From Candidatus Berkelbacteria bacterium (GTDB lineage Bacteria; Patescibacteriota; UBA1384; XYA2-FULL-43-10; 1-14-0-10-43-13), in assembly GCA_037143235.1 (NCBI GenBank), contig JBAWZC010000005.1:1-63833 (forward strand): a DNA stretch of 63,833 bases, in the 5' to 3' direction. The stretch's first letter is position 1; the number at the start of each line of letters is the position of its first letter. The position numbers were made by a program, and so were the translations under genes. Shown here piece by piece: positions 8,610 to 61,848 of this stretch. Under the pieces are notes generated by a model. It did not search any database. It was not told where the DNA came from and saw nothing but the letters and a program-made list of their open reading frames with translations.

Positions 8610-8634
8610 ATTTGTTTGAATAAAGGACGGAGAG

Positions 8635-47773: not shown

Positions 47774-48242
47774 CTAAATATTTTTCATATATATTCTTCG
47801 AGCGTATTAATTCTTCCTTATTAAAGGCAATGGTCCGAAGAGCGTCTGAATATCTGAGCCACAAAATCTCCGTAACTTCGATATCTTCTGGTCTTGGTGT
47901 AAGATCATTTTTTTCCATCGCTTCGAAAACATTTATATAAACCTGTTTGTTATTTTCGCTACCGTCTTTTGTAAACGAATATCTGATCAAACTACAAAAA
48001 CCAACATGTTTCACTGAACATTTTTTTAGAGTGGTTTCTTCCTCAATTTCTCTAAAGGCTGTCTGAAGTTGATCTTCGCCTTCCTCGAGATGCCCTTTCG
48101 AGATCCAAATTTCACCTTTTTTGTTTTTAATCAGTAGAGTATAAATTTCGCCCGTCTCTTTGTCTTTGTAAAAAATAAAGCCGCCAGAGCAAATATGGTG
48201 AATAGTATTATCGTTTTCCAAACTCTTCTTTTGTGTACTCAT
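47760..48242 (-). CDS. NUDIX hydrolase
   Basis: Nudix box KGHLEEGEDQLQTAFREIEEET. Confidence 0.8.
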   Translation of the reverse strand: MSTQKKSLENDNTIHHICSGGFIFYKDKETGEIYTLLIKNKKGEIWISKGHLEEGEDQLQTAFREIEEETTLKKCSVKHVGFCSLIRYSFTKDGSENNKQVYINVFEAMEKNDLTPRPEDIEVTEILWLRYSDALRTIAFNKEELIRSKNIYEKYLDGSN

Positions 48243-48319: not shown

Positions 48320-49312
48320 CTATCTCTTGCGAGCCATAGAGACCAGTTTGTCTAAGTCCAGAGTTAGACCGTTTGATCCAACCAAAACAATCTTTTTGTC
48401 AGTTTGCTGCTCTATGAAATGAATTATTTTTGCAGATAAATTTTTGCTAATTGCACCACCGGGGCTCAAGTGGTCGCAAACACATAACTTGACTTTTGAG
48501 TCTTTTAAAATTTCAATCAAGTCAAATGCAACTGAGTGGAAAAGAGAATGCTTGTTATAAGCGAAGCCGTGTAGATTGAATATAAGTACATCGACATTGG
48601 AAAATATATCTTTTAGCTTGTCATCAAATTTCGTTGGCCCGACGAGCGTTCCTTGGTAGTCTGTTTCGCCAATTTCGTATTCGCCGATAGAAGTTTTAAA
48701 CTTTTTTGTAAATCCAGTGTCCGAGGTATAGCCAACTCTCAATCCGTCTATGTCCATGACGAAGCCGTAAGTGCCATCAATCGAATGGAATACTTTGATC
48801 GGTTTCAAGGAAACCTTCTCAGATAATTTAATTTCTTGGTCAGAAAGTGTTTCGACTTTGAGAACTAGCTTTGGATTTTCTGAAATATGATATGGTTTTA
48901 CGGAGCCATTTGCCAGTGTTTGCTCTGATGCAAGTAGCTTTACATTTTGGTGGCTACAAGATGCTAGCTCCATTGCAACATTTGCATCGTTGTCGTGGTC
49001 AATATGTGAGTGCGAAATGAAAACAGAATTCAGTCGATAGAGATTGACTCCAGATGCTTGGGATCTGTCTAAAATGTTTGCTCCTGGGTCAACCAGCAAT
49101 TCGGTCCCGTCAAACTTGATATAAAAGCCACAGAATAATGGCCTGAAACCTTGATCGTTTCTGAAAAATGGTTTATATTGTCTGCCAAAAAAAGAAATAA
49201 AATTACCTTTAATTTTGTGGGGATTATTGCATGCAGTTGCGCGATTCTGAGTGTAAGATTCATGCTCTCTGGACTCAATTTTTTGTAAATCTTCTATTGA
49301 TATTTTTGTCAT
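48320..49312 (-). CDS. Metallo-beta-lactamase-fold hydrolase
   Basis: ISHSHIDHDND (HxHxDH) and downstream His/Asp ligand positions. Confidence 0.7.
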   Translation of the reverse strand: MTKISIEDLQKIESREHESYTQNRATACNNPHKIKGNFISFFGRQYKPFFRNDQGFRPLFCGFYIKFDGTELLVDPGANILDRSQASGVNLYRLNSVFISHSHIDHDNDANVAMELASCSHQNVKLLASEQTLANGSVKPYHISENPKLVLKVETLSDQEIKLSEKVSLKPIKVFHSIDGTYGFVMDIDGLRVGYTSDTGFTKKFKTSIGEYEIGETDYQGTLVGPTKFDDKLKDIFSNVDVLIFNLHGFAYNKHSLFHSVAFDLIEILKDSKVKLCVCDHLSPGGAISKNLSAKIIHFIEQQTDKKIVLVGSNGLTLDLDKLVSMARKR

Positions 49313-49326
49313 TACAACTTATAAAT

Positions 49327-51012
49327 TTAGTGCAGTACCGGCCCTTCGCCCTCATGGGCGTCAGTAGGCTTTGATTTCAAGATTGGTAGACTGAAAAAGA
49401 ACGAAGTTCCCTTGCCTGTGCCCTCGGACTCAAACCAGATCTTGCCCTTGTGAAGATCAATCAGTTTCTTGGCGATGTACATGCCGAGACCAGTGCCCTT
49501 GACCTCATCCTTCAAAACATCAACCTGAGTGAATTTCTCGAAAACCTTGTCCTTTGACTCCTTTGGTATGCCCTTGCCGTTGTCAGAAACCTCGGTAATA
49601 ATTTTCTGATCATCGGTCCATACCTTGATATCGATCTTGCCACCAGCTGGAGTGTATTTAACGGAGTTGCCGAGCATATTGATCAAAATCTCAGTAATGC
49701 GAGTAGCGTCAAACCAAGTTTTCGGTACAGCGTGAGTAGGTTTGTGGAAGGTCAGTGTGTGTTTCATCTCCTTGACCTTTGGCGCGATCTCCATGACCGC
49801 TTGATCGATAATATCGACGATTTGCACCTCGGAGTAGATCAGGTGAATACGGCCAGACTCAATTCTCGAGACATTTAGCAGATCTTTAACCATATTTGCC
49901 AATCGCCTTGAAGACTTGTAGACGGATTCGAGATAAGTTCGCGCCTTGGGCGGGATCACCCCACCGAGACCTTCGTCCAAGATCATCGATAGATAACCCT
50001 CGATAGCTGAGATTGGGGTATTGAGTTCATGGCTGGCCATGGAAAGGAAGTCGTCTTTGATTTGGTCAAGCTCCTTGAGTTTTACATTGGCCAATGTAAG
50101 CTGGTCAGATAACTTCTGAAGTTCTTCTTTTTGGGCAATTTCAGACTTAACAGATCTCACTAGTAAATAACTGCCACCAAAGATAATTCCTAAAAACATT
50201 AATCTGAGTAGTGCTTCTGCCCATGATTTTGAAGAAAAAACTTGTACTGCCGAAACGATGTTAATCAATACTACAGCTAACTGGGTGGCGATTACTCTGA
50301 CATTGAACAAGTGATGCTTAATGATCGCATACGAGGTCATGCCAATAAGAAAAATTGCGGAATAATTACCATATCTATAGAAGCGTTGGTCGCCCACGAG
50401 ATAGTTAACTGGCAGATATACAATTAAGATCAGTACAAGAAAGATTGCTACTCCTAACAAGAAATATTTTAATTGTCTTCTTTCTTCTCCTTCGGTCCGC
50501 TTGAATATCCAGAAATATCTTAGTGCTGGAATCATCGCAATCGACATGTATATATTAAAGAAAATCCCCCAAGCACCGAGCTCGTTGTTAGTCCCCCACA
50601 AGTACAAGCTAACACTGCTAATAAACTTGTCGGTAAAAATTGAGATAGAAGCAAGCGCCAAGGTGAGTGCCAATAAGGCCAGTCGAAGTGGTTTTTTTAT
50701 TTTATTTTCGTCTTTCGGAAAAACGAATGGAAGCAGGATCAGACAATACGCCCAAAAATATAAACAAGCATAAACTATTCGGTTTGAAAGAAGAGAATAT
50801 CGAGCAAGAGACACGGAATCGCCCAAATGAGCAAAAAGTATCCAAAATGTAATCGAAACAAAGAATACAGCAAGAGTTTGGTTGGTAACTGATTTTCTGT
50901 TTTGCTGGTAAACTAGATATGCCAGAATAAGCCCAGCGAGAGTTATAAAGCCGACTATTACAGAATTCACCCAATAGTCGGCTAGGAAATTTTCTATAGT
51001 AATAATTAACAC
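49327..51012 (-). CDS. Sensor histidine kinase with a polytopic N-terminal membrane domain; no response regulator in the window
   Basis: About 7 TM helices, a coiled coil, H-box SMASHELNTPI and N/G boxes (NSVKYTP, DNGKGIP, GTGLGM). Confidence 0.85.
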   Translation of the reverse strand: MLIITIENFLADYWVNSVIVGFITLAGLILAYLVYQQNRKSVTNQTLAVFFVSITFWILFAHLGDSVSLARYSLLSNRIVYACLYFWAYCLILLPFVFPKDENKIKKPLRLALLALTLALASISIFTDKFISSVSLYLWGTNNELGAWGIFFNIYMSIAMIPALRYFWIFKRTEGEERRQLKYFLLGVAIFLVLILIVYLPVNYLVGDQRFYRYGNYSAIFLIGMTSYAIIKHHLFNVRVIATQLAVVLINIVSAVQVFSSKSWAEALLRLMFLGIIFGGSYLLVRSVKSEIAQKEELQKLSDQLTLANVKLKELDQIKDDFLSMASHELNTPISAIEGYLSMILDEGLGGVIPPKARTYLESVYKSSRRLANMVKDLLNVSRIESGRIHLIYSEVQIVDIIDQAVMEIAPKVKEMKHTLTFHKPTHAVPKTWFDATRITEILINMLGNSVKYTPAGGKIDIKVWTDDQKIITEVSDNGKGIPKESKDKVFEKFTQVDVLKDEVKGTGLGMYIAKKLIDLHKGKIWFESEGTGKGTSFFFSLPILKSKPTDAHEGEGPVLH

Positions 51013-51030
51013 GACCCTCCAGATGGTATA

Positions 51031-52572
51031 TTATTTGAGAAACAACTTCGGTTTTGTTCTGCCAGAGTCTTCAGAGAATGGGCCAGAGCCAAATTCGAAT
51101 ATTTTAATTATGGGGTCGCAATATTTCGGGTCTGATCGATAAGAAACAGCATAATCAGAATTTGTTGACAGAAGGTGATTCAGGATTATTTCATGATATG
51201 TTTTCTCCATCTCAATTTTTTTGTTTTCCGCAAGCTCCATCCCAATTTTTAGTTCTAGCAATATCTGAACCATCTGATGTTGGTTCTCGTCCGTTAACAT
51301 GCCAAGCTTAAAGCTATGGATGTCGTTAGATTTATCGTTAAATAAAACCGGATCTATCTGCTCGGGAAAAATATTGCCACCTCCGACCATAACTGTGTCG
51401 TCTCTGCGTCCAAAGCAATACACGAAAGGTTGCTGGAATATGACATTGCTCGGTATATCTTTGTCGGATAGCATTTTTTTATAATCATACCCATATTTGG
51501 CTAATGCTCTCTCCATGTCACGGAATTTAATGACTCCGCCCCTGTCGTGAATGTTGTACCTGACGAGTGGTGTGGCGCTGCTGCTTGTAAAGCAGGTTTC
51601 CCCTCCTAGTGTTTCAATGAAATAGTTTTGTGTAACATACTGGAACAGCGTAGGAATAACTTCCGTGTTCCCAAAAAGCTCTTTTCTTAAATGCTCGTCT
51701 TGGAGAGACAAATCGCGTATTAAATTTGTGAGAGCTGATCCTACTCCCAATAACCCAAGATCGGTTGTGCCATATCCATCAATTATATCCGTAACGTTCG
51801 AAGCGTCTCCGGAAATTAAAGTGTTGATATATTGTCTCCATTCAACACCATGGCCTTCACCGGCGATAAACAATTTAAGGTTGAGTGCCTTTAGGTCAAT
51901 TTTTTCATCTTGCAGTTTGTCCAAAATAGTTCTTACAAAAGTAGGGTAGGAAAAAATAATTGTTTGATCGTAGTGCCCAGACAATTGTTTAATGGTTGCA
52001 ATAATATTTTCAATTTCTGATCCTGTGGTTGCTAATGTCATGCTGTACTTTTGGGTTAGCGGACGAAGTGCAACATTGACAGCTATTCCGGATGCGTAAA
52101 CACCCAGATTAAAAGCGTTGATTGCAAGAGTTTTTTTTGTGTCAACCTTCCAATATAGGTTCATGAACATATCGAAAATACCAATATATCCTTCTTCTTG
52201 GGCATAATATCTTGGCCATACAGTGGGTTTATCGGTTGTCCCAGAACTCAGTGAGAATGAATAAAGATTCTTGCCTGCCTTTGCAGAATTAATTTTGTCA
52301 AAACCGTATTTTTTGACATAATTATCTTTATCCATAATAGGTAACTTTAAAAAGTCCTCCATGCTATCAATTTTTTCTGATTTTATATCCATGGAATTGA
52401 GAAAGTCGCGATATGCTTCAGTCTCCAATAGTGCCTTCTCGAAAACGTTTATGGCAGTTTTGTTCTGAATTTGTTCCCACGCTTCCGCTGGAATGCTCGA
52501 AAAAAATGCAATTGCTTTCTTCGGGTCGGCCATTATTTCTCGCATATCGGGTGCTTTTTGTTCTTCTGCCAT
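51031..52572 (-). CDS. Adenylate-forming enzyme, PaaK/F390-synthetase-like
   Basis: SLSSGTTDKPT matches the (S/T)SGTTGxP AMP-binding P-loop. The size and layout fit the PaaK/CapK family. Confidence 0.65.
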   Translation of the reverse strand: MAEEQKAPDMREIMADPKKAIAFFSSIPAEAWEQIQNKTAINVFEKALLETEAYRDFLNSMDIKSEKIDSMEDFLKLPIMDKDNYVKKYGFDKINSAKAGKNLYSFSLSSGTTDKPTVWPRYYAQEEGYIGIFDMFMNLYWKVDTKKTLAINAFNLGVYASGIAVNVALRPLTQKYSMTLATTGSEIENIIATIKQLSGHYDQTIIFSYPTFVRTILDKLQDEKIDLKALNLKLFIAGEGHGVEWRQYINTLISGDASNVTDIIDGYGTTDLGLLGVGSALTNLIRDLSLQDEHLRKELFGNTEVIPTLFQYVTQNYFIETLGGETCFTSSSATPLVRYNIHDRGGVIKFRDMERALAKYGYDYKKMLSDKDIPSNVIFQQPFVYCFGRRDDTVMVGGGNIFPEQIDPVLFNDKSNDIHSFKLGMLTDENQHQMVQILLELKIGMELAENKKIEMEKTYHEIILNHLLSTNSDYAVSYRSDPKYCDPIIKIFEFGSGPFSEDSGRTKPKLFLK

Positions 52573-52696
52573 TTTAAACTCCTATAATAATATTAATCTG
52601 TACTCTTATGTTACATTATTTGAAGAAATAATACATCTTTTTGGGTATTCTGTAAATATCTAAATATATCGGCGCATTTCGGACTGTAGGAAAATC

Positions 52697-54010
52697 TTAC
52701 ATGTCGGCATTGCTGGCCTTTTTTTGCATGAAAAAGGCTGCGACTACACCAAATATGGTAAAGATTGCAAGAATCGAAAATGACAATCTATACTGTACTA
52801 CGAGCCCGGCAATCAACGCAATACCGATCAGGCTGCCGAGTTGCTGCAATGTGTTCAGAAAACCTGACGCTGTACCTGATTTGTCAGTTGGCGCAGATCC
52901 AAGAATGGCGGCAAATAGTGTTGACATCAATATTCCACTGCCAGCGGATATCAAAATCATAGCAGGAAGTATGATTTGATAGTACGGTCGTGAAGGTGAC
53001 AATTGGGTTAAAGCCAGCATGCCCACAAGCAGTAAAACACTCGTTAGAAAACCACCGAGTCGCCAATCTTTTATTTGACCACCAATGCCCGCAAAGATGC
53101 CTGTGAAAATCGGAACAGGTAAAAAGGCAAGACCGGCCATAGTGGAGCTCCAGCCCAGAGTATCTTGAAGATAAAAAGTCAGGATGAAGCTCATGCCGAT
53201 CACAGCAACCATCGTGCAGAAACTGATTATGTTTGCGGCCAAAAAAGTGCGATTTTTGAATAGTTGAAAATCAAGAAGTGGTTGCTTTTGATTTTTCTCA
53301 TAAAAATACAGCAGTATGATTAGTAATAGTCCAATCGGCAAAAACCAAGTGCTGATCAGTGTGAGAGAGAGCACGATCATAGACAATCCACTCAAAAACA
53401 ATACTATGCTCAGGAAATCATATTTTTCGGCTGGCTTTTGCGGTAGCACTGGAATAAATTTCTGAGCAACTATGAGGCCAAAAATAACAAAAGGGATATT
53501 TAACAAAAACAACAAATGCCAGCCGTGCAAGCCATAAACTTCTAGACCTGTCAGCACACCGCCGATGAGTGGACCTACCAACATCCCACCGGCAAAAAAC
53601 GATGCGGTAACTGCGAAGGCTTTTTCTCGATCTTTCCATAGATGTGCGATGATCGCCATAGGCATTGTGTAGAGAATGGCAGTGCTAAGTCCCTGAATTG
53701 CTCGTAATATGATAATCACTACAGCATTATTGGAAAGCCCAAGGGCAAGAGAGGTGATGCCAAAAATAGACAAACCAATGATGTATAGTTTTTTTGGTCC
53801 AATCTGGTCTCCAACTTTACCCCAAAATATCAAAGTTGATACCAATATCAGGGTATAAATATTTGGGATCCACTGTGAAACACTGATCGGAATCGATAAA
53901 TCGCGGGTGATGGTCGGAAGGGCAACATTGATACCTGTAGAATCGATTGCGCCCAAAAAATCGGCGATAGCCAAACCAAGGAGTATCCAAAATAATTTAT
54001 TTTTGTTCAT
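52697..54010 (-). CDS. MFS transporter (drug:H+ antiporter-like)
   Basis: 12+ TM helices and a motif-A-like GKVGDQIGPKK. The start overlaps the ThiF-like stop by 4 nt. Confidence 0.85.
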   Translation of the reverse strand: MNKNKLFWILLGLAIADFLGAIDSTGINVALPTITRDLSIPISVSQWIPNIYTLILVSTLIFWGKVGDQIGPKKLYIIGLSIFGITSLALGLSNNAVVIIILRAIQGLSTAILYTMPMAIIAHLWKDREKAFAVTASFFAGGMLVGPLIGGVLTGLEVYGLHGWHLLFLLNIPFVIFGLIVAQKFIPVLPQKPAEKYDFLSIVLFLSGLSMIVLSLTLISTWFLPIGLLLIILLYFYEKNQKQPLLDFQLFKNRTFLAANIISFCTMVAVIGMSFILTFYLQDTLGWSSTMAGLAFLPVPIFTGIFAGIGGQIKDWRLGGFLTSVLLLVGMLALTQLSPSRPYYQIILPAMILISAGSGILMSTLFAAILGSAPTDKSGTASGFLNTLQQLGSLIGIALIAGLVVQYRLSFSILAIFTIFGVVAAFFMQKKASNADM

Positions 54011-54813
54011 TTTGTTGGGTCTAAAATTGCATCAGGATCAAATTCTATGTAATCAGGAGCTACTTTTACGGGCTCTCCGCAAGCTATTCTTTTGGCAGCC
54101 ATCACAGTCATAACTGCCAGAGTATAGCTAGCCGAAGCAGGTTGTGGGTAATGAAGGAGTTTGCCTTCGGCCATCTGCATAATTATTTTCTGGACATAAG
54201 GTGGCATAATTTTTGTAAAAAATTCAATAAATTTACCAAATGCTTCGTCATTGTTGATCTCGGCAACTGGGGTTTTCGGATCTAGACCGATCATCTTTTC
54301 GTAGCTGATTGAGTCCGGAGTAAATATTTGTAGCATTGCACCCCAGCCGACATCAGTGGGCTGAATAATAGATTTGTGTTCCTTCTGAGCTTCTCTATGC
54401 ATGGCAATTACGGCTTGGGCGGCGTCAGGGTCGATACTATCGATAATAATATCGGCTTTATGGACAAGTTTTTTCGCATTATGGATATCAACAAAAATCG
54501 GGTATTTTTTTATCTCGGCATGCGGATTGATTTTCTTGATGAGAGAAGCAAGAGCATTGACTTTAAATCGTCCAACATCATTTGCAAGATATGCTTGGCG
54601 GTTAATGTTCGATAATTCAACTACATCGCCATCAACTAATACGAATTTCTCAAATCCTAGTCGTGCGGCATTTAAAGCAATCATTGAGCCGACGCCACAT
54701 CCAGCAATCAAAAGTGATTTACTATCAATCTTTTGTTGTTCTTCTTCGGTTAATAGTCCCATGTTTCTAGAATGATGTTCGGTGTGGAAAGATAATTTGT
54801 CTAATTTGTTCAT
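54007..54813 (-). CDS. ThiF/MoeB/TcdA-family E1-like adenylyltransferase or dehydratase
   Basis: IAGCGVGSMIALNAARLGF...LVDGDVVELSNINRQ is a Rossmann/E1 signature. The 268-aa length and layout resemble TcdA. There is no C-terminal CxxC. Confidence 0.75.
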   Translation of the reverse strand: MNKLDKLSFHTEHHSRNMGLLTEEEQQKIDSKSLLIAGCGVGSMIALNAARLGFEKFVLVDGDVVELSNINRQAYLANDVGRFKVNALASLIKKINPHAEIKKYPIFVDIHNAKKLVHKADIIIDSIDPDAAQAVIAMHREAQKEHKSIIQPTDVGWGAMLQIFTPDSISYEKMIGLDPKTPVAEINNDEAFGKFIEFFTKIMPPYVQKIIMQMAEGKLLHYPQPASASYTLAVMTVMAAKRIACGEPVKVAPDYIEFDPDAILDPTK

Positions 54814-54856
54814 AGTAGAGCTCCGTCTTATTATTTTCTAGTTTTATGTTAACACC

Positions 54857-54884
54857 ATTATACATACATTCACAAAATATTTAA
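54857..54884 (-). promoter_or_regulatory. Candidate promoter for the ThiF-MFS operon (TTAAAT-16-TATAAT on the minus strand)
   Basis: The reverse complement reads TTAAATATTTTGTGAATGTATGTATAATGG. Confidence 0.3.
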
Positions 54885-54993
54885 CCATATATCTCATAAT
54901 ATCATCAAAAAGCCAAGAAAAGGGGTGGCAATTCATGATGTCTTGGTAATTTTTTAATGGCAACTTTCGAATTTGAAGTCTCTGAATTTGGTC

Positions 54994-55022
54994 TTGACGG
55001 CTTGTACGATTGGCTGTATAAC
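54994..55022 (+). promoter_or_regulatory. Candidate promoter for the ThyA-like operon (TTGACG-17-TATAAC)
   Basis: TTGACG at 54994..54999 and TATAAC at 55017..55022. SD AGGAG at 55064..55068. Confidence 0.4.
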
Positions 55023-55074
55023 TAAATTGTTTTATTGATGAATTTTTGCGTTTTTCCAATTACAGGAGTTGGAA

Positions 55075-55839
55075 ATGTATAAAATCATTGAACCGTTTGG
55101 CATCCATGTTTATGGAGAGTCAATTGGTGAAGCATGGCTCAGTTTGGTTCAAGCCGTTCTTGATAAAGGTGAAATTTGTTCCGATGAAGGAAGACTGAGA
55201 GCGGCGATTAGAAATGTTAGGATCCGAGCAGATAGTCAAAAACTTCCAGATAATCTTATTGAGAAATTTGGCAACCAAGAAAACCTCAAAAATATTTTAG
55301 AGCTTACTTTCAATAATGAGGATATGTTTGATATTGATATAATTCCAAGTTTTACGCCAAGAGAGAAAAAAAGCTACTATTACAGAATCAAAGAAGGCAG
55401 AATGGTTGATTTCGTTGTAGCAAGACTGAGTGAGATTCCAGAGAGCAAAAAGGCGGTAATTGTTTTTCCAACATGGGATGACTACAAAGCGGTTCTTAAG
55501 TCGCCGCAGGACGACTATCTACCATGTTTGGTCTCAGTGCAATTCAGAATGCAGCCTATGAAAGACAGTTGGGTTTTAGATACCGTTTTCAACGCTCGTT
55601 CAATCGACGCTTTTCAAAAATCTTATGCAAACTTATGGGCTATTGCAAAACTCTCGGAAATTGTTGCAGCAAAGATCGCTGAAAATAGAAAAGAAGAAAT
55701 CATAGTCGGCTCCTTGGATGGAGTAATAACTGACGCTCATATTTATAAAGAGACTTTTGGTTCAGCCCGTAAGACTGTTGATGATTGGTATAAGTTTGAA
55801 ACAGAACAATTAAGAGGGAAAGAAGTGAAAAATGTTTAA
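55075..55839 (+). CDS. Divergent thymidylate-synthase-fold protein (second ThyA-like paralog; nucleotide C5-modifying enzyme?)
   Basis: LPCLVSVQF aligns with E. coli APCHAFFQF (catalytic Cys). NARSIDAFQKSYANLWAIAKL aligns with [20 protein letters not shown], and DAHIYKE with DTHLYSN. The ATG at 55075 is preferred over the TTG at 55069. Confidence 0.6.
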   Translation: MYKIIEPFGIHVYGESIGEAWLSLVQAVLDKGEICSDEGRLRAAIRNVRIRADSQKLPDNLIEKFGNQENLKNILELTFNNEDMFDIDIIPSFTPREKKSYYYRIKEGRMVDFVVARLSEIPESKKAVIVFPTWDDYKAVLKSPQDDYLPCLVSVQFRMQPMKDSWVLDTVFNARSIDAFQKSYANLWAIAKLSEIVAAKIAENRKEEIIVGSLDGVITDAHIYKETFGSARKTVDDWYKFETEQLRGKEVKNV

Positions 55840-56605
55840 TTTAATGCACAATCAATCTGGTCGTTTCAAGATCACAGACAAGGACAATGAGGATGTTGAT
55901 CTGCTTCGACAATTAGATGAAATTTTTATAAGCAAAAAAGGATATGTAGTCAAAATGCCTGATAAAGGCTCAGTCGTCGCTGCCTGTATGTCAGGAGGAT
56001 TAGACTCGACAGCAAATCTGGCGATTTTGATGGAAGAATATGGCTATGAGGTATTCCCGTTTTTTATCAATCGAGGACAATCAGCATACAAGGAAGAGCG
56101 TGCAGCGGTTGACTGGTATGATAGATTTTTCAAAGAGCGATACCCTAAACTTTACCACACAGTAACTGAAATAAGCGTGGCCACTCCTGCAGCCGAATAC
56201 AAAGATATGCTGAGAGATACGAAAAATGCGATGACTGATGATGAGCAATGTAAAAATATCTCGTATCCAGCCAGGAATCCGATAATTTTTCTCTCGGGTA
56301 TGGAATTTGCGTACTCTTTAAAATCAAAGGGGAAAGAAATAAAAACGGTTTTCGCTTCTCATGTTTCGTCCGATGGCTCTTACCATTGTTCACAGACATG
56401 GACAAGAGGGCTCAATCTTCAAATGTGTCAAATAATGAATGACTGGGACTGGCAATTTATCTCTATTCCAATTGAGACAGCTTTCGGTAATTATTTTGAT
56501 AAAGATGTATATATTAGATTCTGTCACGAACATGGCATTCCTTTGAAATATACTCGAACTTGCGTAAAAACAGGAGTTCCGTGCGGATCTTGTCCTCCCT
56601 GTTAG
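55832..56605 (+). CDS. QueC-like PP-loop ATPase (7-cyano-7-deazaguanine synthase family), ended by an in-frame TAG
   Basis: SGGLDST PP-loop, FINRGQSA (vs FNYGQRH), ARNPIIFLS (vs GRNLLFLS) and the C-terminal zinc cluster TCVKTGVPCGSCPPC. The start overlaps the ThyA-like gene by 8 nt. Confidence 0.7.
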   Translation: MFNLMHNQSGRFKITDKDNEDVDLLRQLDEIFISKKGYVVKMPDKGSVVAACMSGGLDSTANLAILMEEYGYEVFPFFINRGQSAYKEERAAVDWYDRFFKERYPKLYHTVTEISVATPAAEYKDMLRDTKNAMTDDEQCKNISYPARNPIIFLSGMEFAYSLKSKGKEIKTVFASHVSSDGSYHCSQTWTRGLNLQMCQIMNDWDWQFISIPIETAFGNYFDKDVYIRFCHEHGIPLKYTRTCVKTGVPCGSCPPC

Positions 56606-56712
56606 GAGCGCAGGAGGGCTTTTAAAGAATTGAAATTAGAGGACATTGACAATTATTTAAATGCGATGCCAAAAGAATTGCCTCATAGCTATAACTAGAA
56701 GAAAGGAAACCA

Positions 56713-57288
56713 ATGGATAAAACCATCAATCTAATGACTGGAAATCAGAGAAAAGTGGAAAGCTTGCAAAAAGCTGTAGCTCCTTACGGATATAATGTGG
56801 AAATTACCAAAGTAGAATTTCCTGAGATCCAATCAAATACTACTGCCGAAGTCGCTGCATTTGCTGCAAAATGGGTAGCAGATAGAATCAAGAAGTCATG
56901 CGTCAAAATGGATTCTGGTTTTTTTGTTAAAGAATTTGGAAGTTTCCCTGGGGTATATGTTCGATGGGTTGATGAGGGTTTGGGAGTTGAAAGATTTTTT
57001 AATATTCTCAAGAATACTGAAAATAAAAAGGCTATGATCACCTGCTCTGTCGCGTATTGTGAGCCAGGAGGTGAGCCAGTCACATTTTTTGGCAGTGCTC
57101 TTGGTAGTGTCCCTAAAAAATTAGGGGAGAAAGGTAGTTTTATCGATCGTCTTTTTGTTCCAGACGATCATAATCCTAGGGGGCTTACTATGGGAGAGCT
57201 GAGAGAATTAGACTCTGACGCAGTGACGGAGATATGGGGTCGTGCCGAAAAAGAGTTTATAAAATGGCTCTCGAAACGCGAAAGTTAA
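56713..57288 (+). CDS. Ham1/ITPase-family non-canonical NTP pyrophosphatase
   Basis: TGNQRKVES (TGNxxK), EIQS and MDSGFFV...FPGVY motifs. Confidence 0.7.
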   Translation: MDKTINLMTGNQRKVESLQKAVAPYGYNVEITKVEFPEIQSNTTAEVAAFAAKWVADRIKKSCVKMDSGFFVKEFGSFPGVYVRWVDEGLGVERFFNILKNTENKKAMITCSVAYCEPGGEPVTFFGSALGSVPKKLGEKGSFIDRLFVPDDHNPRGLTMGELRELDSDAVTEIWGRAEKEFIKWLSKRES

Positions 57289-57303
57289 ATATTAAACAAG
57301 GGG

Positions 57304-57912
57304 GTGAAAAAATTGTTTGTGTACATCGGCGGTGTCCCTGCAGTGGGGAAGACATCGATAATTCGAGAAGTTGAGAAGCTGGCACACGATCAGGGGATAC
57401 GGCTCGAGCGAATTATTGGGACTGGAATTATGTGTGAGTTGGCAGGCGTCTCAACAGTTGAGGAATTGAGACAGCTATCGGAAGAGGTGAGGAGAGCGCT
57501 TCGCCCGGAAATGAACAGGCGGATATACGAACAAGACCGTCAAGACCCGGCAACAATCAGAGTGTGCGATGGGCATTTCTGTTTCTTCGACTTAAGAGGC
57601 GAAGAATATGGTAAGCGCCAAATTCAGCCCTGGGACAAAGAACAGTTGAAGGCTATTGTTGTTGTACTGGCAAGCCCTCAAACCGTTTTACATCGTAGGA
57701 TGCGGGACGGTATCGGAAGGCCAGACAGGCAATTAAACCTTGAGTTCATCAAAAAAGAACAACAACTCGAGGTGCATATTGCGACAGTTCAAGCTCAAGT
57801 GCTAGGTATACCGATTGGCTTTCTGGCCAATGGTAGCAGCAAAAGAGTTGCCGAAGAAGCGGAGTTGCTATTGTCTCTGATCGAACAATGGATAGGATTA
57901 CCGAGGAGGTGA
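57304..57912 (+). CDS. P-loop (nucleotide/nucleoside) kinase-like protein
   Basis: Walker A GGVPAVGKTS and adenylate-kinase-like size. The start is ambiguous (GTG 57304, TTG 57313). Confidence 0.55.
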   Translation: MKKLFVYIGGVPAVGKTSIIREVEKLAHDQGIRLERIIGTGIMCELAGVSTVEELRQLSEEVRRALRPEMNRRIYEQDRQDPATIRVCDGHFCFFDLRGEEYGKRQIQPWDKEQLKAIVVVLASPQTVLHRRMRDGIGRPDRQLNLEFIKKEQQLEVHIATVQAQVLGIPIGFLANGSSKRVAEEAELLLSLIEQWIGLPRR

Positions 57913-57974
57913 CAAAGACCGACATCAACAAAAAATTCCATTCCGAAAATTAAATTGGATGGGATTAATAACAC

Positions 57975-58001
57975 AGGAGGTCAGCAGTTCGCTGACCTCC
58001 T
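57975..58001. terminator. Bidirectional hairpin terminator
   Basis: AGGAGGTCAGC-AGTTC-GCTGACCTCCT followed by TCTT. Confidence 0.65.
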
Positions 58002-58079
58002 TCTTGTTGATCAAAATAGGGAGCACCCTAAATGCAAATCGAAGAGAATTTTACAAAGCTATAAATTAGTTGGAAATGC

Positions 58080-58538
58080 TTATTGCGTGTCACTGGCACC
58101 AAGTGACATATTTACACTACCAGCGATCGGCCTAAAGCCATGTTTTTCATAAAAAACCACCAGCCAAGGGGCATCTGGCTCTGTGGTTAAGGAAACAATT
58201 GGAATCTTTAGCGCAGTTAGTTCCAGAGCAATATTTTTCAACAAATTTGATCCTATCTTTTGGCGTCGAAAATTTTCATCGACCATCAAATCCACGATGA
58301 TACCGTGCCTAGAGAAATCTGTTAGCGCTCTAACCGCACCAACGATTTCGTCACCAGCAATAGCTAGACAAATGATACTGGAGTTTAGAACAGTATTTCT
58401 GTTAAAGGGCTTTTGGTATTTAGGTTCGTAGAAATTAACTAGCTCGTCGAGATGTTCAGAGTAGTTATGTTTGAGTGTGGTGTATTTAATTTCTGTCATG
58501 TGGTTCCGTGATAGATTATTAATTTGTCGCTGACCCAA
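58080..58538 (-). CDS. GNAT-family N-acetyltransferase
   Basis: VGAVRALTD...IVDLMVDENFRRQKIGSNLL is acetyl-CoA motif A (R/Q-x-x-G-x-G/A-like). The start may be the ATG at 58499 (MTEIKY). Confidence 0.7.
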   Translation of the reverse strand: MGQRQINNLSRNHMTEIKYTTLKHNYSEHLDELVNFYEPKYQKPFNRNTVLNSSIICLAIAGDEIVGAVRALTDFSRHGIIVDLMVDENFRRQKIGSNLLKNIALELTALKIPIVSLTTEPDAPWLVVFYEKHGFRPIAGSVNMSLGASDTQ

Positions 58539-58695
58539 TTATATCAAAAATATTCAAAAAATATAATCGAAAAAAGCGTCGAGGTGAAACGGCGAGACTG
58601 TGAATATATTTTATAACAGAGCATATCAAAATATAAGAAAATTTAGCTGGTGATTGTTGCTGTATTTATCACCAAGAATCATATACAATACCAAC

Positions 58696-59721
58696 ATGAA
58701 ACTTAGCTTTAATATTTCAAAAAAGTATAACCACTTTTTCTTTGTTCAGACTCTCGCTGATTGGCATTTTTCCTGTCGCCAAGAGTACATTGATGATTGG
58801 CTCGCGAAGACTGGGCCACTGACTGGTAACGAAAAAAACTCGCTGGATGCATTTAGGGTAATGCTGCAAAAACATGGTTTTGGTGAGCTAAAAAACAGTC
58901 AAGCGGCAAATGTCTTTGATTTTTTCATGAGATTTGATGAATTTACGGACAAAAGTGTCTTTTCTGCTGATGAGATCAATATCTATTTAGCCGCTATGGA
59001 CGCTCTGGAGACACGATTTGAGAAGATCTGGGCTATGGGGCAGAATGGCTTAGTCCAAGCAAAAAAGCTTTTAGAGAATGTATTCGACCGAGATAAAGAT
59101 ATGATCTCTGGCGACCTCAAGAAATTATTTGCCAATCATATCGATCTGGATCGTTCGCTTGAGGTCATACTATTGTTGTCAACTGAGGACAGTGGCGCTG
59201 GTGCTGGTGGTGCAAACAATGGCCCCAATATTATTACTTTGGAGTGTAGTGGAACGCACGCAGCTGATTTGGGTTATCTGTTGTCGACCTTGTGGCACGA
59301 AATGATTCATTTAATCATGGCTGACTATATCTCTGAGGCAGCAACCCAAATGGAAATTAATGAGACTGCCATAGTGGCCTCAATTCAAGTAGAAAAGGCT
59401 GATTTTAAATACTTTGAGGAATTGGTCGCATTTTCACTCTTTTCTCCCATGAGCTTTCTGACAAGAAAATATTTTCACACCGATTTGTCGGGAAAGCTTC
59501 AGAGTGCTGTCTCGAAAAATGACATCCAGTGGTTGCTGCATGCGAAGTATGTTTTTGTGATGTATCTGATATATCTGAACGGACAATATCTTGAAGAATC
59601 TCTGAAAGGTGATCGATCGATACCGCCAGAAGAAATGGCGAAAGCATTTATCGAGAATCATCAAGTTGTTGACGATTATTTCCGCGATAATGGTGCTCGT
59701 CCCGAGTGGCTTAGTTATTAG
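58696..59721 (+). CDS. Hypothetical protein with an HExxH motif (WHEMIHL)
   Basis: Long ORF with the start set at MKLSFNISKK. No other motif recognised. Confidence 0.45.
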   Translation: MKLSFNISKKYNHFFFVQTLADWHFSCRQEYIDDWLAKTGPLTGNEKNSLDAFRVMLQKHGFGELKNSQAANVFDFFMRFDEFTDKSVFSADEINIYLAAMDALETRFEKIWAMGQNGLVQAKKLLENVFDRDKDMISGDLKKLFANHIDLDRSLEVILLLSTEDSGAGAGGANNGPNIITLECSGTHAADLGYLLSTLWHEMIHLIMADYISEAATQMEINETAIVASIQVEKADFKYFEELVAFSLFSPMSFLTRKYFHTDLSGKLQSAVSKNDIQWLLHAKYVFVMYLIYLNGQYLEESLKGDRSIPPEEMAKAFIENHQVVDDYFRDNGARPEWLSY

Positions 59722-61383: not shown

Positions 61384-61440
61384 GGCTAGCTCCTGCTTGC
61401 CCCGCGTAGCGTCAGCGAAGTGGGGACTCCTTGCTTTCTA
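61384..61440. repeat. Intergenic copy of the trmD-internal repeat
   Basis: GCTAGCTCCTGCTTGCCCCGCGTAGCGTCAGCGAAGTGGGGACTCCTTGCTTTCTA. It abuts the Nudix stop codon. Confidence 0.85.
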
Positions 61441-61848
61441 TAGTACTACTTGTTGGAAATCAATCGTTTTGAGTTTGTCGAAGGGTCTAATATTTTTTGG
61501 CAAGCAAATGATTTCATTAAACTTGGTTTCGTCGACAAAACAATATGGCAGTTCGTGTTTTGGAGATAAAGGGATTGTTTCGTCGATCTTACCTACAAAA
61601 AAGAGCTCGATCTGTCGGACGCCGTCAGTAAAAGTGAGATCTTGTACAAAGGCAATTTCTCCGACAGTGGCTGTATATCCGGTTTCTTCAAAAATTTCCC
61701 GTTTGACGGCATCAATAGTTCGTTCGCCCTCCTCGATTCCGCCGCCGGGATATGACCAGTGATCAGCTCTCTCCTGAACCAAAAGAAGCTTATTTTTGTC
61801 GTTCTTGATAATGCCTTTGACTGATATTCGCAATTTATATTTACTCAT
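61438..61848 (-). CDS. NUDIX hydrolase
   Basis: Nudix box PGGGIEEGERTIDAVKREIFEETGY. Confidence 0.85.
   Translation of the reverse strand: MSKYKLRISVKGIIKNDKNKLLLVQERADHWSYPGGGIEEGERTIDAVKREIFEETGYTATVGEIAFVQDLTFTDGVRQIELFFVGKIDETIPLSPKHELPYCFVDETKFNEIICLPKNIRPFDKLKTIDFQQVVL

What the first reader, a model, noticed from the sequence alone, without database searches (positions are those of the whole stretch)
51031..58538. Divergent cluster combining ThyA-like, QueC-like, Ham1, P-loop kinase, ThiF/E1-like, MFS, PaaK-like ligase and GNAT genes: candidate pathway for a non-canonical nucleotide or nucleobase
Layout:
- Two operons diverge from the 255-bp region 54814..55068.
- Rightward are a divergent thymidylate-synthase-fold gene and a QueC-like PP-loop ATPase (8-nt overlap, so probably translationally coupled). 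A Ham1/ITPase-type NTP pyrophosphatase and a P-loop kinase follow.
- Leftward are a ThiF/TcdA-like E1 enzyme and an MFS exporter (4-nt overlap). A PaaK-like adenylate-forming ligase, an orphan histidine kinase and an MBL hydrolase follow.
- A GNAT gene converges on the kinase.

Why it stands out:
- The canonical thyA, dut, dCMP deaminase, folA and glyA genes sit elsewhere (5.6-10.5 kb), so this ThyA-like gene is an extra paralog.
- By manual alignment it keeps the catalytic Cys (LPC) and an Asn at the position of E. coli Asn177, which suggests a uracil-type substrate.
- No queD, queE, folE or tgt gene is in the window, so the QueC-like gene is not in a standard preQ0 context.
- ThyA-like base modifier + NTP pyrophosphatase + P-loop kinase mirrors phage pyrimidine-hypermodification pathways such as T4 gp42/gp56/gp1. 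In those, one enzyme makes the modified monophosphate, one phosphorylates it and one removes the competing canonical NTP.
- The E1-like enzyme, adenylating ligase, MFS exporter and GNAT would instead fit an exported nucleoside-type metabolite with a self-resistance acetyltransferase.

I cannot assign this cluster to any described pathway.
Basis: partly seen in the sequence, partly recalled or inferred. Interest (0 to 1): 0.82.

Follow-up and report, generated by a model that had tools for sequence, protein, structure and literature searches.

The report
ThyA-like/QueC-like pyrimidine nucleotide-modification operon
Four of the flagged genes form an operon, conserved in ultra-small bacteria and archaea and not described in the papers I could search, that probably makes a non-standard pyrimidine nucleotide; the other flagged genes are a separate neighbouring operon.

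Summary
The nine-gene "cluster" is really two independent units.

**Unit 1 (55075-57912, +).** It runs ThyA-like, QueC-like, Ham1, P-loop kinase and ends at a hairpin (57975-58001). Across 82 related loci from Patescibacteria, DPANN archaea and one phage contig:
- a QueC-like gene accompanies the ThyA-like gene in 61;
- an NTP pyrophosphatase of one of three folds (Ham1, CYTH or NUDIX) is present in 64;
- a kinase of the AAA_17 or Tmk type is present in 36.

Fusions (Tmk-ThyA-like, QueC-like-Ham1, methyltransferase-Ham1) indicate free nucleotides as substrates. The ThyA-like protein keeps the catalytic Cys, the phosphate-binding residues, Asp169(Ec) and Asn177(Ec), which points to a dUMP-type, folate-type enzyme. 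The QueC-like protein fails the canonical QueC signature.

**Best reading.** A mononucleotide-level pathway for a 5-substituted pyrimidine nucleotide, with phage-like logic in cellular genomes. The product is unknown.

**Unit 2 (49327-54813, -).** ThiF, MFS, PaaK-like ligase and 7TM histidine kinase form their own conserved operon elsewhere, without Unit 1. GNAT is not conserved with either unit.

The window's QueC-like gene carries an in-frame TAG (56603-56605) where homologs have Trp.

The parts
54814..55074 (.). Divergent intergenic region upstream of the ThyA-like gene; presumed promoter region of the rightward operon
   Evidence: No ORF with homologs. No Rfam match at E<=1. Only weak sigma-70-like matches, no more than shuffled sequence gives.
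55075..55839 (+). ThyA-like protein (254 aa from ATG 55075; the ORF tool starts at TTG 55069). Divergent thymidylate-synthase-fold enzyme, dUMP-type by residue signature.
   Evidence: Pfam PF00303 29.9 bits. TIGR03283 49.9 bits against a cut-off of 174.55. AF2 pLDDT 92. Foldseek top hit is MilA CMP hydroxymethylase, followed by ThyA and T4 dCMP hydroxymethylase. Invariant Cys153, Arg177-Ser178, Asp180, His224, Tyr226; Asn188 in this clade.
55832..56698 (+). QueC-family PP-loop ATPase (subfamily 'Q-A'), 288 codons, interrupted by an in-frame TAG at 56603-56605 (Trp in homologs). It overlaps the ThyA-like gene by 8 nt.
   Evidence: Pfam QueC 44.3 bits. TIGR00364 34.7 bits against a cut-off of 150.3. 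Read-through translation matches the C-terminus of P0121/P0124. AF2 model of the 86%-identical P0121 has pLDDT 91.5. Foldseek top hits are Cap9 (9nto_B) and QueC (2pg3, 3bl5).
56603..56605 (+). In-frame TAG inside the QueC-like gene (TGG to TAG relative to homologs)
56713..57288 (+). Ham1/ITPase-fold NTP pyrophosphatase, archaeal-like, with an altered base-recognition motif
   Evidence: Pfam Ham1p_like 81 bits, but below the NCBIfam equivalog cut-offs. Closest PDB entry is MJ0226 (1b78).
57304..57912 (+). P-loop nucleotide kinase (AAA_17; distantly related to archaeal adenylate kinase)
   Evidence: The same slot is filled by Tmk-like or dNK-like kinases in other loci.
57975..58001 (.). Bidirectional terminator-like hairpin (11-12 bp stem) that ends the rightward operon and separates it from the convergent GNAT gene
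49327..54813 (-). NOT part of the module. A separate conserved operon: ThiF (54007-54813), MFS (52697-54010), PaaK-like ligase (51031-52572), HisKA_7TM histidine kinase (49327-51012).
   Evidence: The same four genes occur in the same order in L089-L092, without a ThyA-like neighbour.
58080..58538 (-). NOT part of the module: GNAT acetyltransferase, convergent, not conserved near the module
   Evidence: 0 of 82 loci.

Best explanation
The rightward operon (ThyA-like, QueC-like, Ham1, kinase) is one copy of a conserved module of Patescibacteria and DPANN archaea. The module builds a non-canonical pyrimidine nucleotide at the free-mononucleotide level.

**Proposed sequence**
1. An NTP pyrophosphatase (here Ham1; CYTH or NUDIX elsewhere) turns a (d)NTP into the (d)NMP substrate, or removes a competing NTP.
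2. The ThyA-like enzyme uses its Cys to attack C6 of a uracil nucleotide and adds a one-carbon unit at C5. The donor is folate-type. Methyl versus hydroxymethyl is not resolved.
3. The translationally coupled QueC-family PP-loop enzyme adenylates an oxygen function on that base. This is most likely a ring carbonyl (C4 or C2), alternatively the new C5 substituent. The enzyme then replaces it with ammonia or another amine.
4. The kinase phosphorylates the product towards the di- and triphosphate. The probable destination is nucleic acid, most likely DNA.

**Shown versus inferred**
- Shown: the conserved gene association, the folds, the retained catalytic and nucleotide-binding residues, the non-orthologous replacements and the fusions.
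- Inferred: the order of steps, the chemistry of the QueC-like step, the identity of the product and its fate.

In this particular genome the QueC-like gene carries a premature TAG, so the pathway may be impaired, or the assembly may carry an error.
For: **Conserved association**
- 82 non-redundant loci: QueC-like in 61, an NTP pyrophosphatase in 64, a kinase in 36, all three in 30.
- The QueC-like start usually overlaps the ThyA-like stop.
- The reverse check holds: 3 of 3 QueC-like homologs examined lie beside a ThyA-like gene.

**Non-orthologous replacement**
- The pyrophosphatase slot is filled by Ham1, CYTH or NUDIX. The kinase slot is filled by AAA_17, Tmk-like or dNK-like proteins.

**Fusions that tie the enzymes to free nucleotides**
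- Tmk-ThyA-like (P0106), QueC-like-Ham1 (L009) and methyltransferase-Ham1 (L061, L063, L068).

**ThyA-like protein**
- Confident TS fold, closest to MilA, ThyA and T4 dCMP hydroxymethylase.
- Invariant Cys153, Arg42, Lys127-Lys128, Arg177-Ser178, Asp180, His224 and Tyr226.
- By the diagnostic positions published in PMC13326640, Asn at N177 indicates a dUMP-type substrate. Asp at D169 indicates it is not the flavin 5-hydroxylase type.

**QueC-like protein**
- Confident PP-loop fold, nearest to Cap9 and QueC. Nucleobase-carbonyl-activating relatives (TtuA, GMP synthetase, YcfA bound to GTP) also match.

**An extra paralog, not the housekeeping enzyme**
- A canonical dut/dcd/thyA/folA/glyA set is present in the same window.

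**Larger variants resemble phage hypermodification clusters**
- Some operons add a GT1 glycosyltransferase, a serine-decarboxylase-like PLP enzyme and an HD hydrolase (compare PMC13326640).
- One IMG/VR phage contig carries ThyA-like, QueC-like and CYTH.

**Co-variation**
- The residue at the N177 position switches Asn/Asp between clades, and this tracks the QueC-like subfamily.
Against: - There is no biochemical or analytical evidence for any product.
- The residue at the position that separates methyl from hydroxymethyl products (E. coli L143) is an invariant Tyr with an adjacent invariant Asp. This matches neither published pattern.
- Characterised QueC-clade enzymes (QueC, Cap9, QatC) activate the carboxylate of 7-carboxy-7-deazaguanine, not a pyrimidine carbonyl (abstracts). 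Pyrimidine chemistry would therefore be new for this clade.
- Asp188 (cytosine-type) ThyA-like proteins also pair with a QueC-like enzyme. A simple uracil-to-cytosine amination cannot explain all family members.
- Kinases were detected in only 36 of 82 loci.
- The module is nearly absent from viral contigs (1 locus).
- I found no report of modified DNA in these organisms in ten literature searches.
- The window's QueC-like gene has a premature stop.
Confidence: 0.6

Rival explanations
1. Ordinary housekeeping genes. The operon would be a second, archaeal-type thymidylate synthase with a dUTP/ITP house-cleaning pyrophosphatase and a dTMP or adenylate kinase. The QueC gene would be a normal preQ0 synthase for queuosine or archaeosine, and merely a neighbour.
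For: - Best NCBIfam names are thymidylate synthase (methanogen type), QueC, XTP/dITP diphosphatase and adenylate kinase.
- A Tmk-ThyA-like fusion exists.
- Asn188 fits dUMP.
Against: - All four scores are far below the equivalog cut-offs: 49.9 vs 174.55, 34.7 vs 150.3, 123 vs 203 and 43.7 vs 155.
- Canonical thyA and dut are already present in the window.
- The canonical QueC motifs YxQxHxxE and YPDC are not kept.
- The QueC-like gene is translationally coupled to the ThyA-like gene in most of 61 loci. Loci without it carry a methyltransferase (12 loci) or a SLOG protein (5 loci) instead.
- The Ham1 SHR motif is lost.
Confidence: 0.1
2. A secreted or free nucleobase/nucleoside antimetabolite pathway, like MilA/MilB (mildiomycin), bacimethrin or YcfA (6-thioguanine). 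The product would be released rather than built into nucleic acid.
For: - MilA is the best structural match.
- The PP-loop enzyme YcfA, solved with GTP bound, is among the structural matches of the QueC-like model.
- Five ThyA-like loci have an overlapping SLOG/LOG-like gene, a possible nucleotide N-glycosidase.
- An MFS gene and a GNAT gene lie next to the module in the window.
Against: - MFS, GNAT, ThiF and the PaaK-like gene are not conserved with the module: 0, 0, 1 and 1 of 82 loci. The first, third and fourth belong to another operon.
- QueC-containing loci carry kinases rather than glycosidases or phosphatases, which points towards the triphosphate.
- The SLOG-linked loci lack a QueC-like gene and come mostly from records not labelled as Patescibacteria or DPANN.
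Confidence: 0.12
3. An anti-phage defence or counter-defence module. On infection it would make a poisonous or chain-terminating nucleotide, or deplete a normal nucleotide.
For: - QueC-family proteins act in type IV CBASS and QatABCD.
- Some module copies sit beside restriction-type genes: AAA_15 ATPase, N6_N4 methyltransferase and MutH-like in L093/L094; T1RH, RhuM and a reverse transcriptase in L095.
Against: - PADLOC gives only the generic QueC model and no Qat or CBASS partner genes.
- The family is compact and well conserved: about 17 clusters at 50% identity reach E<=1e-30.
- Its flanking genes vary widely and include housekeeping genes.
- A phage also carries the module.
Confidence: 0.1
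4. One nine-gene pathway, as first proposed. ThiF, MFS, the PaaK-like ligase, the histidine kinase and GNAT would act together with the ThyA-like operon.
For: - The two sets are adjacent and divergent in the window.
- One other locus (L085, Brennerbacteria) has ThiF, a nitroreductase-like gene and a PaaK-like gene next to ThyA-like, QueC-like and CYTH.
Against: - Only 1 of 82 loci shows this adjacency.
- Four of four PaaK-like contexts lack the ThyA-like module.
- The two units lie on different contigs of one assembly (L005 and L089).
- The closest relative of the window's module (L006, 87% identity) has a transposase and an aminotransferase upstream instead.
- No ThiS-like small ORF is present.
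Confidence: 0.04

Closest known systems
Phage pre-replicative pyrimidine modification pathways built on ThyA homologs: T4 gp56 dCTPase, gp42 dCMP hydroxymethylase and gp1 kinase; RB69/DLP3 5-hydroxy-dCMP synthase with dCTPase, dNMP kinase and GT4-type glycosyltransferases (PMC13326640)
   Same: - Same overall logic and enzyme classes: an NTP pyrophosphatase, a ThyA-fold C5-modifying enzyme acting on a mononucleotide, and a dedicated NMP kinase.
- Some relatives add glycosyltransferase and PLP-decarboxylase genes.
- The same diagnostic active-site positions can be read.
   Different: - Encoded by cellular Patescibacteria and DPANN genomes; only one viral contig was found.
- The ThyA-like protein is a separate, compact family. 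Its profile finds no PDB sequence at E<=0.01, and structural matches are 14-20% identical in sequence.
- It has a QueC-family PP-loop partner, which I know of in no phage pathway of this kind.
- The pyrophosphatases are Ham1, CYTH or NUDIX. From my own knowledge, the phage enzymes are MazG- or dUTPase-type.
- The product is unknown.
Canonical QueC (7-cyano-7-deazaguanine synthase) and its repurposed relatives Cap9 and QatC
   Same: - PP-loop SGGxDS motif, a PxRN motif and a C-terminal four-Cys cluster.
- Closest folds are 9nto_B, 2pg3 and 3bl5.
   Different: - The YxQxHxxE and YPDC substrate motifs are replaced by NRGQSxYxxE and SYHC.
- Cys spacing is C(x)6CxxCxxC rather than C(x)8.
- There is a roughly 45-residue N-terminal extension.
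- The TIGR00364 score is 34.7 against a cut-off of 150.3.
- No que, CBASS or Qat partner genes are nearby; a ThyA-like gene is the constant neighbour instead.
- No ThyA-linked cluster is described in the 2026 PF06508 survey: 'thymidylate' does not occur in its text.
MilA/MilB (mildiomycin) and BcmA/BcmB (bacimethrin): a CMP hydroxymethylase plus an N-glycosidase
   Same: - MilA is the best structural match to the ThyA-like model, with TM about 0.7.
- A minority of family members pair with a SLOG/LOG-like protein.
   Different: - The window protein has Asn, not Asp, at the specificity position.
- There is no glycosidase in the window's operon.
- Kinases point towards the triphosphate rather than a free base.
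YcfA-type PP-loop enzyme of Erwinia amylovora (6-thioguanine pathway)
   Same: A small stand-alone PP-loop enzyme. PDB 9kqd shows it bound to ATP and the free nucleotide GTP, and it is among the Foldseek matches. It is a precedent for PP-loop chemistry on free nucleotides.
   Different: - Weak structural match (TM 0.4-0.46).
- Purine substrate.
- The sulfur-transfer details come from my own knowledge of the literature and were not tested here. No sulfur-carrier or PLP partner is present in the window's operon.

Membership tests
Thymidylate synthase / dCMP hydroxymethylase superfamily (PF00303) | TS alpha/beta fold | tested here: met
   AF2 pLDDT 92. Foldseek probability 1.00 to MilA, ThyA and T4 dCMP hydroxymethylase. 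Pfam 29.9 bits against a cut-off of 24.3.
Thymidylate synthase / dCMP hydroxymethylase superfamily (PF00303) | Catalytic Cys (Ec C146) and the nucleotide-binding residues R21, R126/R127, R166, S167, H207 and Y209 | tested here: met
   Cys153, Arg42, Arg177-Ser178, His224 and Tyr226 are invariant. Lys127-Lys128 replace the Arg pair.
Bona fide thymidylate synthase (ThyA equivalogs TIGR03283, NF002495) | Score above the curated equivalog cut-off | tested here: not met
   49.9 vs 174.55 and 29.1 vs 327. The family profile finds no PDB sequence at E<=0.01.
Bona fide thymidylate synthase | Bulky hydrophobic residue at Ec L143 (methyl product), the W80/W83 folate wall, and dTMP-forming activity | tested here: inconclusive
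   Tyr150 sits at the L143 position, with invariant Asp149 beside it. No Trp pair could be aligned. Activity cannot be tested with these tools.
Flavin-dependent 5-hydroxy-dCMP synthase (RB69 gp48 type) | Asn at Ec D169 and Asp at Ec N177 | tested here: not met
   Asp180 is invariant; the window has Asn188. Criteria are from PMC13326640.
Canonical QueC (TIGR00364) | SGGxDS PP-loop and a C-terminal Zn Cys cluster | tested here: met
   MSGGxDS is present. The Cys cluster is C244(x)6C251xxC254xxC257, whereas canonical spacing is C(x)8.
Canonical QueC (TIGR00364) | Substrate motifs YxQxHxxE and YPDC, and a score above the cut-off | tested here: not met
   The motifs are replaced by NRGQSxYxxE and SYHC. 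Score is 34.7 bits against a cut-off of 150.3.
Canonical QueC (TIGR00364) | Genomic link to queD, queE, folE, tgt or dpd genes | tested here: not met
   None lie in the operon or in the related loci examined; the neighbours are a ThyA-like gene, a pyrophosphatase and a kinase. The rest of the window was not scanned.
QatABCD / type IV CBASS defence | Partner genes (QatA/B/D, or CD-NTase with Cap10) | tested here: not met
   PADLOC matches only the generic QueC model. No such neighbours appear in any locus.
RdgB/Ham1 ITP/XTP pyrophosphatase | Ham1 fold and a score above the Pfam cut-off | tested here: met
   81.1 bits against a cut-off of 22.5. Closest PDB entry is MJ0226, E 2e-22.
RdgB/Ham1 ITP/XTP pyrophosphatase | Equivalog score and the C-terminal SHR base-recognition motif | tested here: not met
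   123 vs 203 and 98.9 vs 145.
Phage-type pre-replicative pyrimidine hypermodification pathway | A ThyA homolog, an NTP pyrophosphatase and an NMP kinase encoded together | tested here: met
Phage-type pre-replicative pyrimidine hypermodification pathway | A modified base replaces a canonical base in DNA | not testable with these tools
   Needs LC-MS/MS of digested DNA.
ThiF-MFS-PaaK-like-HK operon as part of the same system | Conserved co-localisation with the ThyA-like module | tested here: not met
   1 of 82 loci. Four of four PaaK-like contexts lack the ThyA-like gene.

The most novel reading that the evidence does not exclude
Patescibacteria and DPANN archaea, and at least one of their phages, synthesise a previously undescribed pyrimidine nucleotide. 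One candidate is a 5-substituted cytosine-type base made from dUMP: the ThyA-like enzyme modifies C5, then a QueC-family enzyme adenylates the ring carbonyl and replaces it with ammonia or an amine such as ethanolamine. The cells would then incorporate this base into their own genomic DNA. That would be a natively cellular DNA hypermodification pathway, and a new reaction class for the QueC family.
Probability: 0.2. Interest if true: 0.9.

Novelty: new variant of a known kind. Interest (0 to 1): 0.68.

Why it matters
- **Why cellular hosts would be new.** As far as I know, mononucleotide-level pyrimidine modification pathways built on thymidylate-synthase homologs have been described only in phages, where they protect DNA from restriction.
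- **What is new here.** A conserved version occurs in the reduced genomes of episymbiotic bacteria and archaea, including human-associated Saccharibacteria. It is always tied to a QueC-family ATPase whose canonical substrate motifs have changed. This points to an unknown nucleotide in these organisms, and to a new chemistry for the QueC scaffold.
- **Testable now.** Cultivated Saccharibacteria exist, and intact homologs of all four genes are in public assemblies.
- **Annotation.** These genes should not be annotated as thymidylate synthase, QueC, RdgB and adenylate kinase.
- **Separate lead.** ThiF-MFS-PaaK-like-histidine kinase is a second uncharacterised conserved operon.

Tried and rejected
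1. **Sulfur-carrier idea (TtuA/TtuB/TtuC analogy: ThiF feeding the QueC-like enzyme).** No ThiS-like small ORF with a C-terminal GG lies in 50.9-58.7 kb, and ThiF is not conserved with the module. Rejected.
2. **Second QueC-like paralogs in some loci as the 'real' QueC.** All score below the TIGR00364 cut-off. Rejected.
3. **Simple 'QueC-like converts the uracil product to cytosine' for the whole family.** Asp188 (cytosine-type) ThyA-like proteins of Saccharibacteria also pair with a QueC-like enzyme. The idea survives only in a subfamily-specific form.
4. **Riboswitch or other RNA leader that would name the ligand.** No Rfam match at E<=1.
5. **Flavin-dependent 5-hydroxylase reading**, prompted by Foldseek hits 9iqu and 9iqc. 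Asp180 is retained, so the published D169N signature is absent.
6. **Thiamine-pyrimidine link (CYTH, ThiF, bacimethrin analogy).** No supporting genes were found, so I dropped it.
7. **Sequence searches of PDB with the ThyA-like protein or its profile** gave nothing useful.
9. **Ten literature searches** found no description of the module.

Full report

Pfam and NCBIfam confirm each domain call:
- ThyA-like, 55069/55075-55839: PF00303, 29.9 bits.
- QueC-like, 55832-56605: PF06508, 44.3 bits.
- Ham1, 56713-57288.
- P-loop kinase, 57304-57912: AAA_17, with a weak match to archaeal adenylate kinase.
- ThiF, 54007-54813.
- MFS, 52697-54010.
- Weak PaaK-like ligase, 51031-52572.
- HisKA_7TM histidine kinase, 49327-51012.
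- MBL hydrolase, 48320-49312.
- GNAT, 58080-58538.

The 8-nt and 4-nt overlaps are as stated. The canonical dut, dCMP deaminase, thyA, NUDIX, folA and glyA genes lie at 5.6-10.5 kb. Base composition is unremarkable across the region.

One thing was missed. The QueC-like ORF ends at a TAG (56603-56605) at a position where all homologs have Trp (…CPPC-W-ERRR…). The next 30 codons, up to the TAG at 56696-56698, encode the conserved C-terminus. The real gene is therefore 55832-56698. In this assembly it carries a nonsense codon or a base error.

**2. Which genes belong together?**

The ThyA-like protein has at least 288 relatives in the protein collection, and the few that carry an organism name come from Patescibacteria. 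A pattern scan of one genome per GTDB species returned 80 loci. The organism labels were Patescibacteria (Microgenomates- and Parcubacteria-type lineages, many Saccharibacteria including Nanosynbacter) and DPANN archaea (Nanoarchaeota, Woesearchaeota).

I annotated these loci with phmmer seeds and checked representatives with Pfam. Counts over 82 non-redundant loci are:

| Gene near the ThyA-like gene | Loci (of 82) |
|---|---|
| QueC-like within 6 kb | 61 |
| NTP pyrophosphatase | 64 |
| Kinase | 36 |
| All three | 30 |
| ThiF | 1 |
| PaaK-like | 1 |
| MFS | 0 |
| GNAT | 0 |

- The QueC-like gene is nearly always the next gene, and its start usually overlaps the ThyA-like stop.
- The pyrophosphatase is Ham1 in some lineages, CYTH in others and NUDIX in Saccharibacteria.
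- The kinase is AAA_17-type, Tmk-like or dNK-like.
- The reverse check holds. Three QueC-like homologs chosen across the identity range all lie beside a ThyA-like gene.

The leftward genes behave differently. Four homologs of the PaaK-like protein, on long contigs, all sit in the order ThiF, MFS, PaaK-like, histidine kinase, with no ThyA-like gene nearby. In L092 a peptidase gene is inserted between MFS and the PaaK-like gene. One of these contigs (L089) is from assembly GCA_004196315.1, which carries the ThyA-like/QueC-like pair on another contig (L005). The closest relative of the window's module (L006, 87% identity) has a transposase and an aminotransferase upstream instead of ThiF. Only L085 (Brennerbacteria) repeats the adjacency, in a different arrangement with a nitroreductase-like gene. 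A strong bidirectional hairpin at 57975-58001 closes the rightward operon before the convergent GNAT gene.

Conclusion: the finding contains two independent conserved operons that happen to be neighbours here, plus an unrelated GNAT gene.

**3. What the four-gene module looks like**

*ThyA-like protein*
- The AF2 model is confident, with pLDDT 92.
- Its best PDB matches are MilA (CMP hydroxymethylase, TM about 0.7), many ThyA entries, T4 dCMP hydroxymethylase and the flavin-dependent dCMP hydroxylases 9iqu and 9iqc. Viral matches are ThyA and gp42 homologs at 14-20% identity.
- The family is compact and distinct. Its profile finds no PDB sequence at E<=0.01. Only about 17 clusters at 50% identity reach E<=1e-30 among 1.8 billion representatives.
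- Residues invariant across the 79 full-length sequences compared: Asp149-Tyr150, Pro152-Cys153, Arg177-Ser178-x-Asp180, Gln183-Lys184, Asp222-x-His224-x-Tyr226, Arg42/Arg44 and Lys127-Lys128.
It equates residue 188 with N177.

*Reading the published diagnostic positions (PMC13326640)*
- Asn at N177 means a uracil nucleotide substrate.
- Asp at D169 excludes the flavin 5-hydroxylase type.
- The L143 position, which correlates with methyl versus hydroxymethyl products, holds an invariant Tyr next to an invariant Asp. This fits neither pattern.
- Residue 188 is Asn in the window's clade but Asp (cytosine-type) in the Saccharibacteria clade and in most loci with a methyltransferase-Ham1 fusion.

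*QueC-like protein*
- The model of the 86%-identical, full-length P0121 is confident, with pLDDT 91.5.
- It is nearest to Cap9 (9nto_B) and QueC (2pg3, 3bl5). TtuA, GMP synthetase, NAD synthetase and YcfA (solved with GTP bound) follow.
- It keeps SGGxDS, a PxRN motif and a four-Cys cluster. It replaces the experimentally defined QueC substrate motifs YxQxHxxE and YPDC, and it scores 34.7 bits against the 150.3-bit QueC cut-off.
- PADLOC finds no Qat or CBASS partners.
- The 2026 survey of PF06508 never uses the word 'thymidylate'. The sections I read describe no such cluster.
- The QueC-like proteins of these loci fall into at least four subfamilies:
  - Q-A, the window type, always directly after an Asn188 ThyA-like gene.
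  - Q-B, a second copy in several loci.
  - Q-C, found in the loci that also carry a glycosyltransferase.
  - Q-S, in Saccharibacteria, closest to Q-B and paired with Asp188.
- None of the second copies is a true QueC.

*Ham1 and kinase*
- Ham1 is closest to archaeal MJ0226.
- The kinase is distantly related to archaeal adenylate kinases.

**4. Evidence that the enzymes act on free nucleotides in one pathway**

- Three fusions link the components:
  - Tmk-ThyA-like (P0106).
  - QueC-like-Ham1 (L009).
  - Methyltransferase-Ham1 (L061, L063, L068).
- Where QueC-like is absent, the partner is a SAM methyltransferase (12 loci) or an overlapping SLOG/LOG-like protein (5 loci). These are again nucleotide-directed enzymes.
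- Larger operons run QueC-like, Tmk/dNK kinase, GT1 glycosyltransferase, serine-decarboxylase-like PLP enzyme (8jg7, E 2e-74), HD hydrolase, Ham1, ThyA-like. The full set is in L047, and in L035 without Ham1. L050 lacks the PLP enzyme, and L014, L064 and L086 carry partial sets. This enzyme set resembles the phage clusters for glycosylated 5-hydroxycytosine and other hypermodified pyrimidines (PMC13326640).
- One IMG/VR contig with YopX, an M23 peptidase and a GroEL-like gene carries ThyA-like, QueC-like and CYTH.

**5. Most likely mechanism**

1. A pyrophosphatase supplies the monophosphate, or removes a competing triphosphate.
2. The ThyA-like enzyme adds a one-carbon unit at C5 of a uracil nucleotide.
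3. The QueC-family enzyme adenylates an oxygen function on that base and substitutes it with ammonia or an amine.
4. A kinase sends the product towards the triphosphate, for use in nucleic acid.

I put about 0.6 on this general statement. I put about 0.2 on the specific version in which the product is a 5-substituted cytosine-type base that enters genomic DNA.

The co-variation between residue 188 and the QueC-like subfamily fits the idea that Q-A acts on a uracil-derived intermediate. The serine decarboxylase next to Q-C fits the use of an amine nucleophile. Both points are inference only.

**6. Rivals**

| Rival | Confidence | Main objection |
|---|---|---|
| Housekeeping genes | about 0.1 | Sub-threshold equivalog scores, canonical genes already present, tight coupling with QueC-like |
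| Released antimetabolite | about 0.12 | Transporter and acetyltransferase are not conserved; kinases are present |
| Defence module | about 0.1 | No partner genes; compact, well-conserved family in varied contexts; some copies do sit near restriction genes |
| Nine-gene single pathway | about 0.04 | Section 2 |

**7. Novelty**

The building blocks and the overall logic are known from phages. Three things are new:
- The hosts are cellular Patescibacteria and DPANN archaea.
- The ThyA-like family is distinct from characterised ones.
- It is constantly paired with a divergent QueC-family enzyme.

Ten literature searches found no description of this module. I rate it a new variant of a known kind.

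**8. Limits**

- Organism labels come from MAG records and may be wrong; several 'Gammaproteobacteria' labels look unreliable to me.
- My locus annotation used simple ORF calling and phmmer seeds, so kinase counts are lower bounds and overlap lengths are upper bounds.
- I did not verify that queD, queE, folE and tgt are absent from the whole window.
- There is no direct evidence for any product.

Noticed in passing
window 56603-56605: In-frame TAG in the QueC-like gene where all homologs have Trp (TGG). The downstream 30 codons are still conserved, so this is a recent nonsense allele or a consensus or assembly error.
   Followed up: yes
window 49327-54813 (- strand); L089-L092: ThiF, MFS, PaaK-like ligase and HisKA_7TM histidine kinase form a conserved four-gene operon in Patescibacteria of unknown function. 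The best PDB match of ThiF is 9egb/9egc, an uncharacterised 'THIF-type NAD/FAD binding fold' protein. The ligase resembles PaaK only weakly.
   Followed up: partly
L064-L086 versus the window and L001-L062: The substrate-specificity residue of the ThyA-like family (E. coli N177) is Asn in most groundwater lineages. It is Asp in the Saccharibacteria clade and in most loci with a methyltransferase-Ham1 fusion. The switch tracks the QueC-like subfamily (Q-A or Q-C versus Q-S).
   Followed up: partly
L047 2923-8705; L035; L050; L014; L064; L086: Extended operons add a GT1 glycosyltransferase, a serine-decarboxylase-like PLP enzyme (8jg7, E 2e-74) and an HD hydrolase to the ThyA-like, QueC-like, kinase and Ham1 genes. 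This resembles phage DNA hypermodification clusters.
   Followed up: partly
L087 (IMGVR_UViG_3300033149_002467) 7998-10099: A 41.8-kb putative phage contig (YopX, M23 peptidase, GroEL-like gene, many small same-strand ORFs) carries ThyA-like, QueC-like and CYTH. It was the only viral hit in two scans.
   Followed up: partly
L066 9974-10456 and the equivalent ORF in L069-L084: A conserved 160-aa ORF follows NUDIX in the Saccharibacteria version of the module. It has no Pfam or PDB match. Motifs looked NDK-like by eye (SFGYIKSEG, NYMHAAD), but BLASTP against E. coli Ndk was negative.
   Followed up: partly
window 56713-57288; Ham1 genes of L006-L062: The module's Ham1 proteins have lost the C-terminal SHR motif of RdgB/ITPase (window: EIWGR). 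Only the Ham1 proteins of the glycosyltransferase-containing loci L047 and L050 keep (F/I)SHR.
   Followed up: partly
L021, L036, L045, L046, L055: In records not labelled Patescibacteria or DPANN (Holophagaceae, Parvibaculaceae, Alphaproteobacteria, Desulfobacteraceae), the ThyA-like gene is preceded by an overlapping SLOG cluster-4 (LOG-like) gene and has no QueC-like partner. This is a MilA/MilB-like pair.
   Followed up: no
L001, L006, L030, L032, L039, L044, L059, L085, L096 and the window: A histidine kinase (HisKA_7TM in every case where domains were listed) lies within about 6 kb of the ThyA-like module in about 10 of 83 loci. This may be chance, because the kinase family may be multi-copy, or it may be a regulatory link.
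   Followed up: no
L093/L094 269-3219; L095 8301-9947: Some module copies lie next to restriction- or defence-type genes: AAA_15 ATPase, N6_N4 methyltransferase and MutH-like nuclease in L093/L094; T1RH-like, RhuM and a reverse transcriptase in L095.
   Followed up: no
window 58654-59721 (+): A 355-aa ORF just beyond GNAT has no Pfam or PHROG match.
   Followed up: no
window 47760-48242, 61438-61848, 8136-8609: Three NUDIX hydrolase genes are in the window. One lies inside the canonical dTMP-synthesis cluster, between thyA and folA.
   Followed up: no
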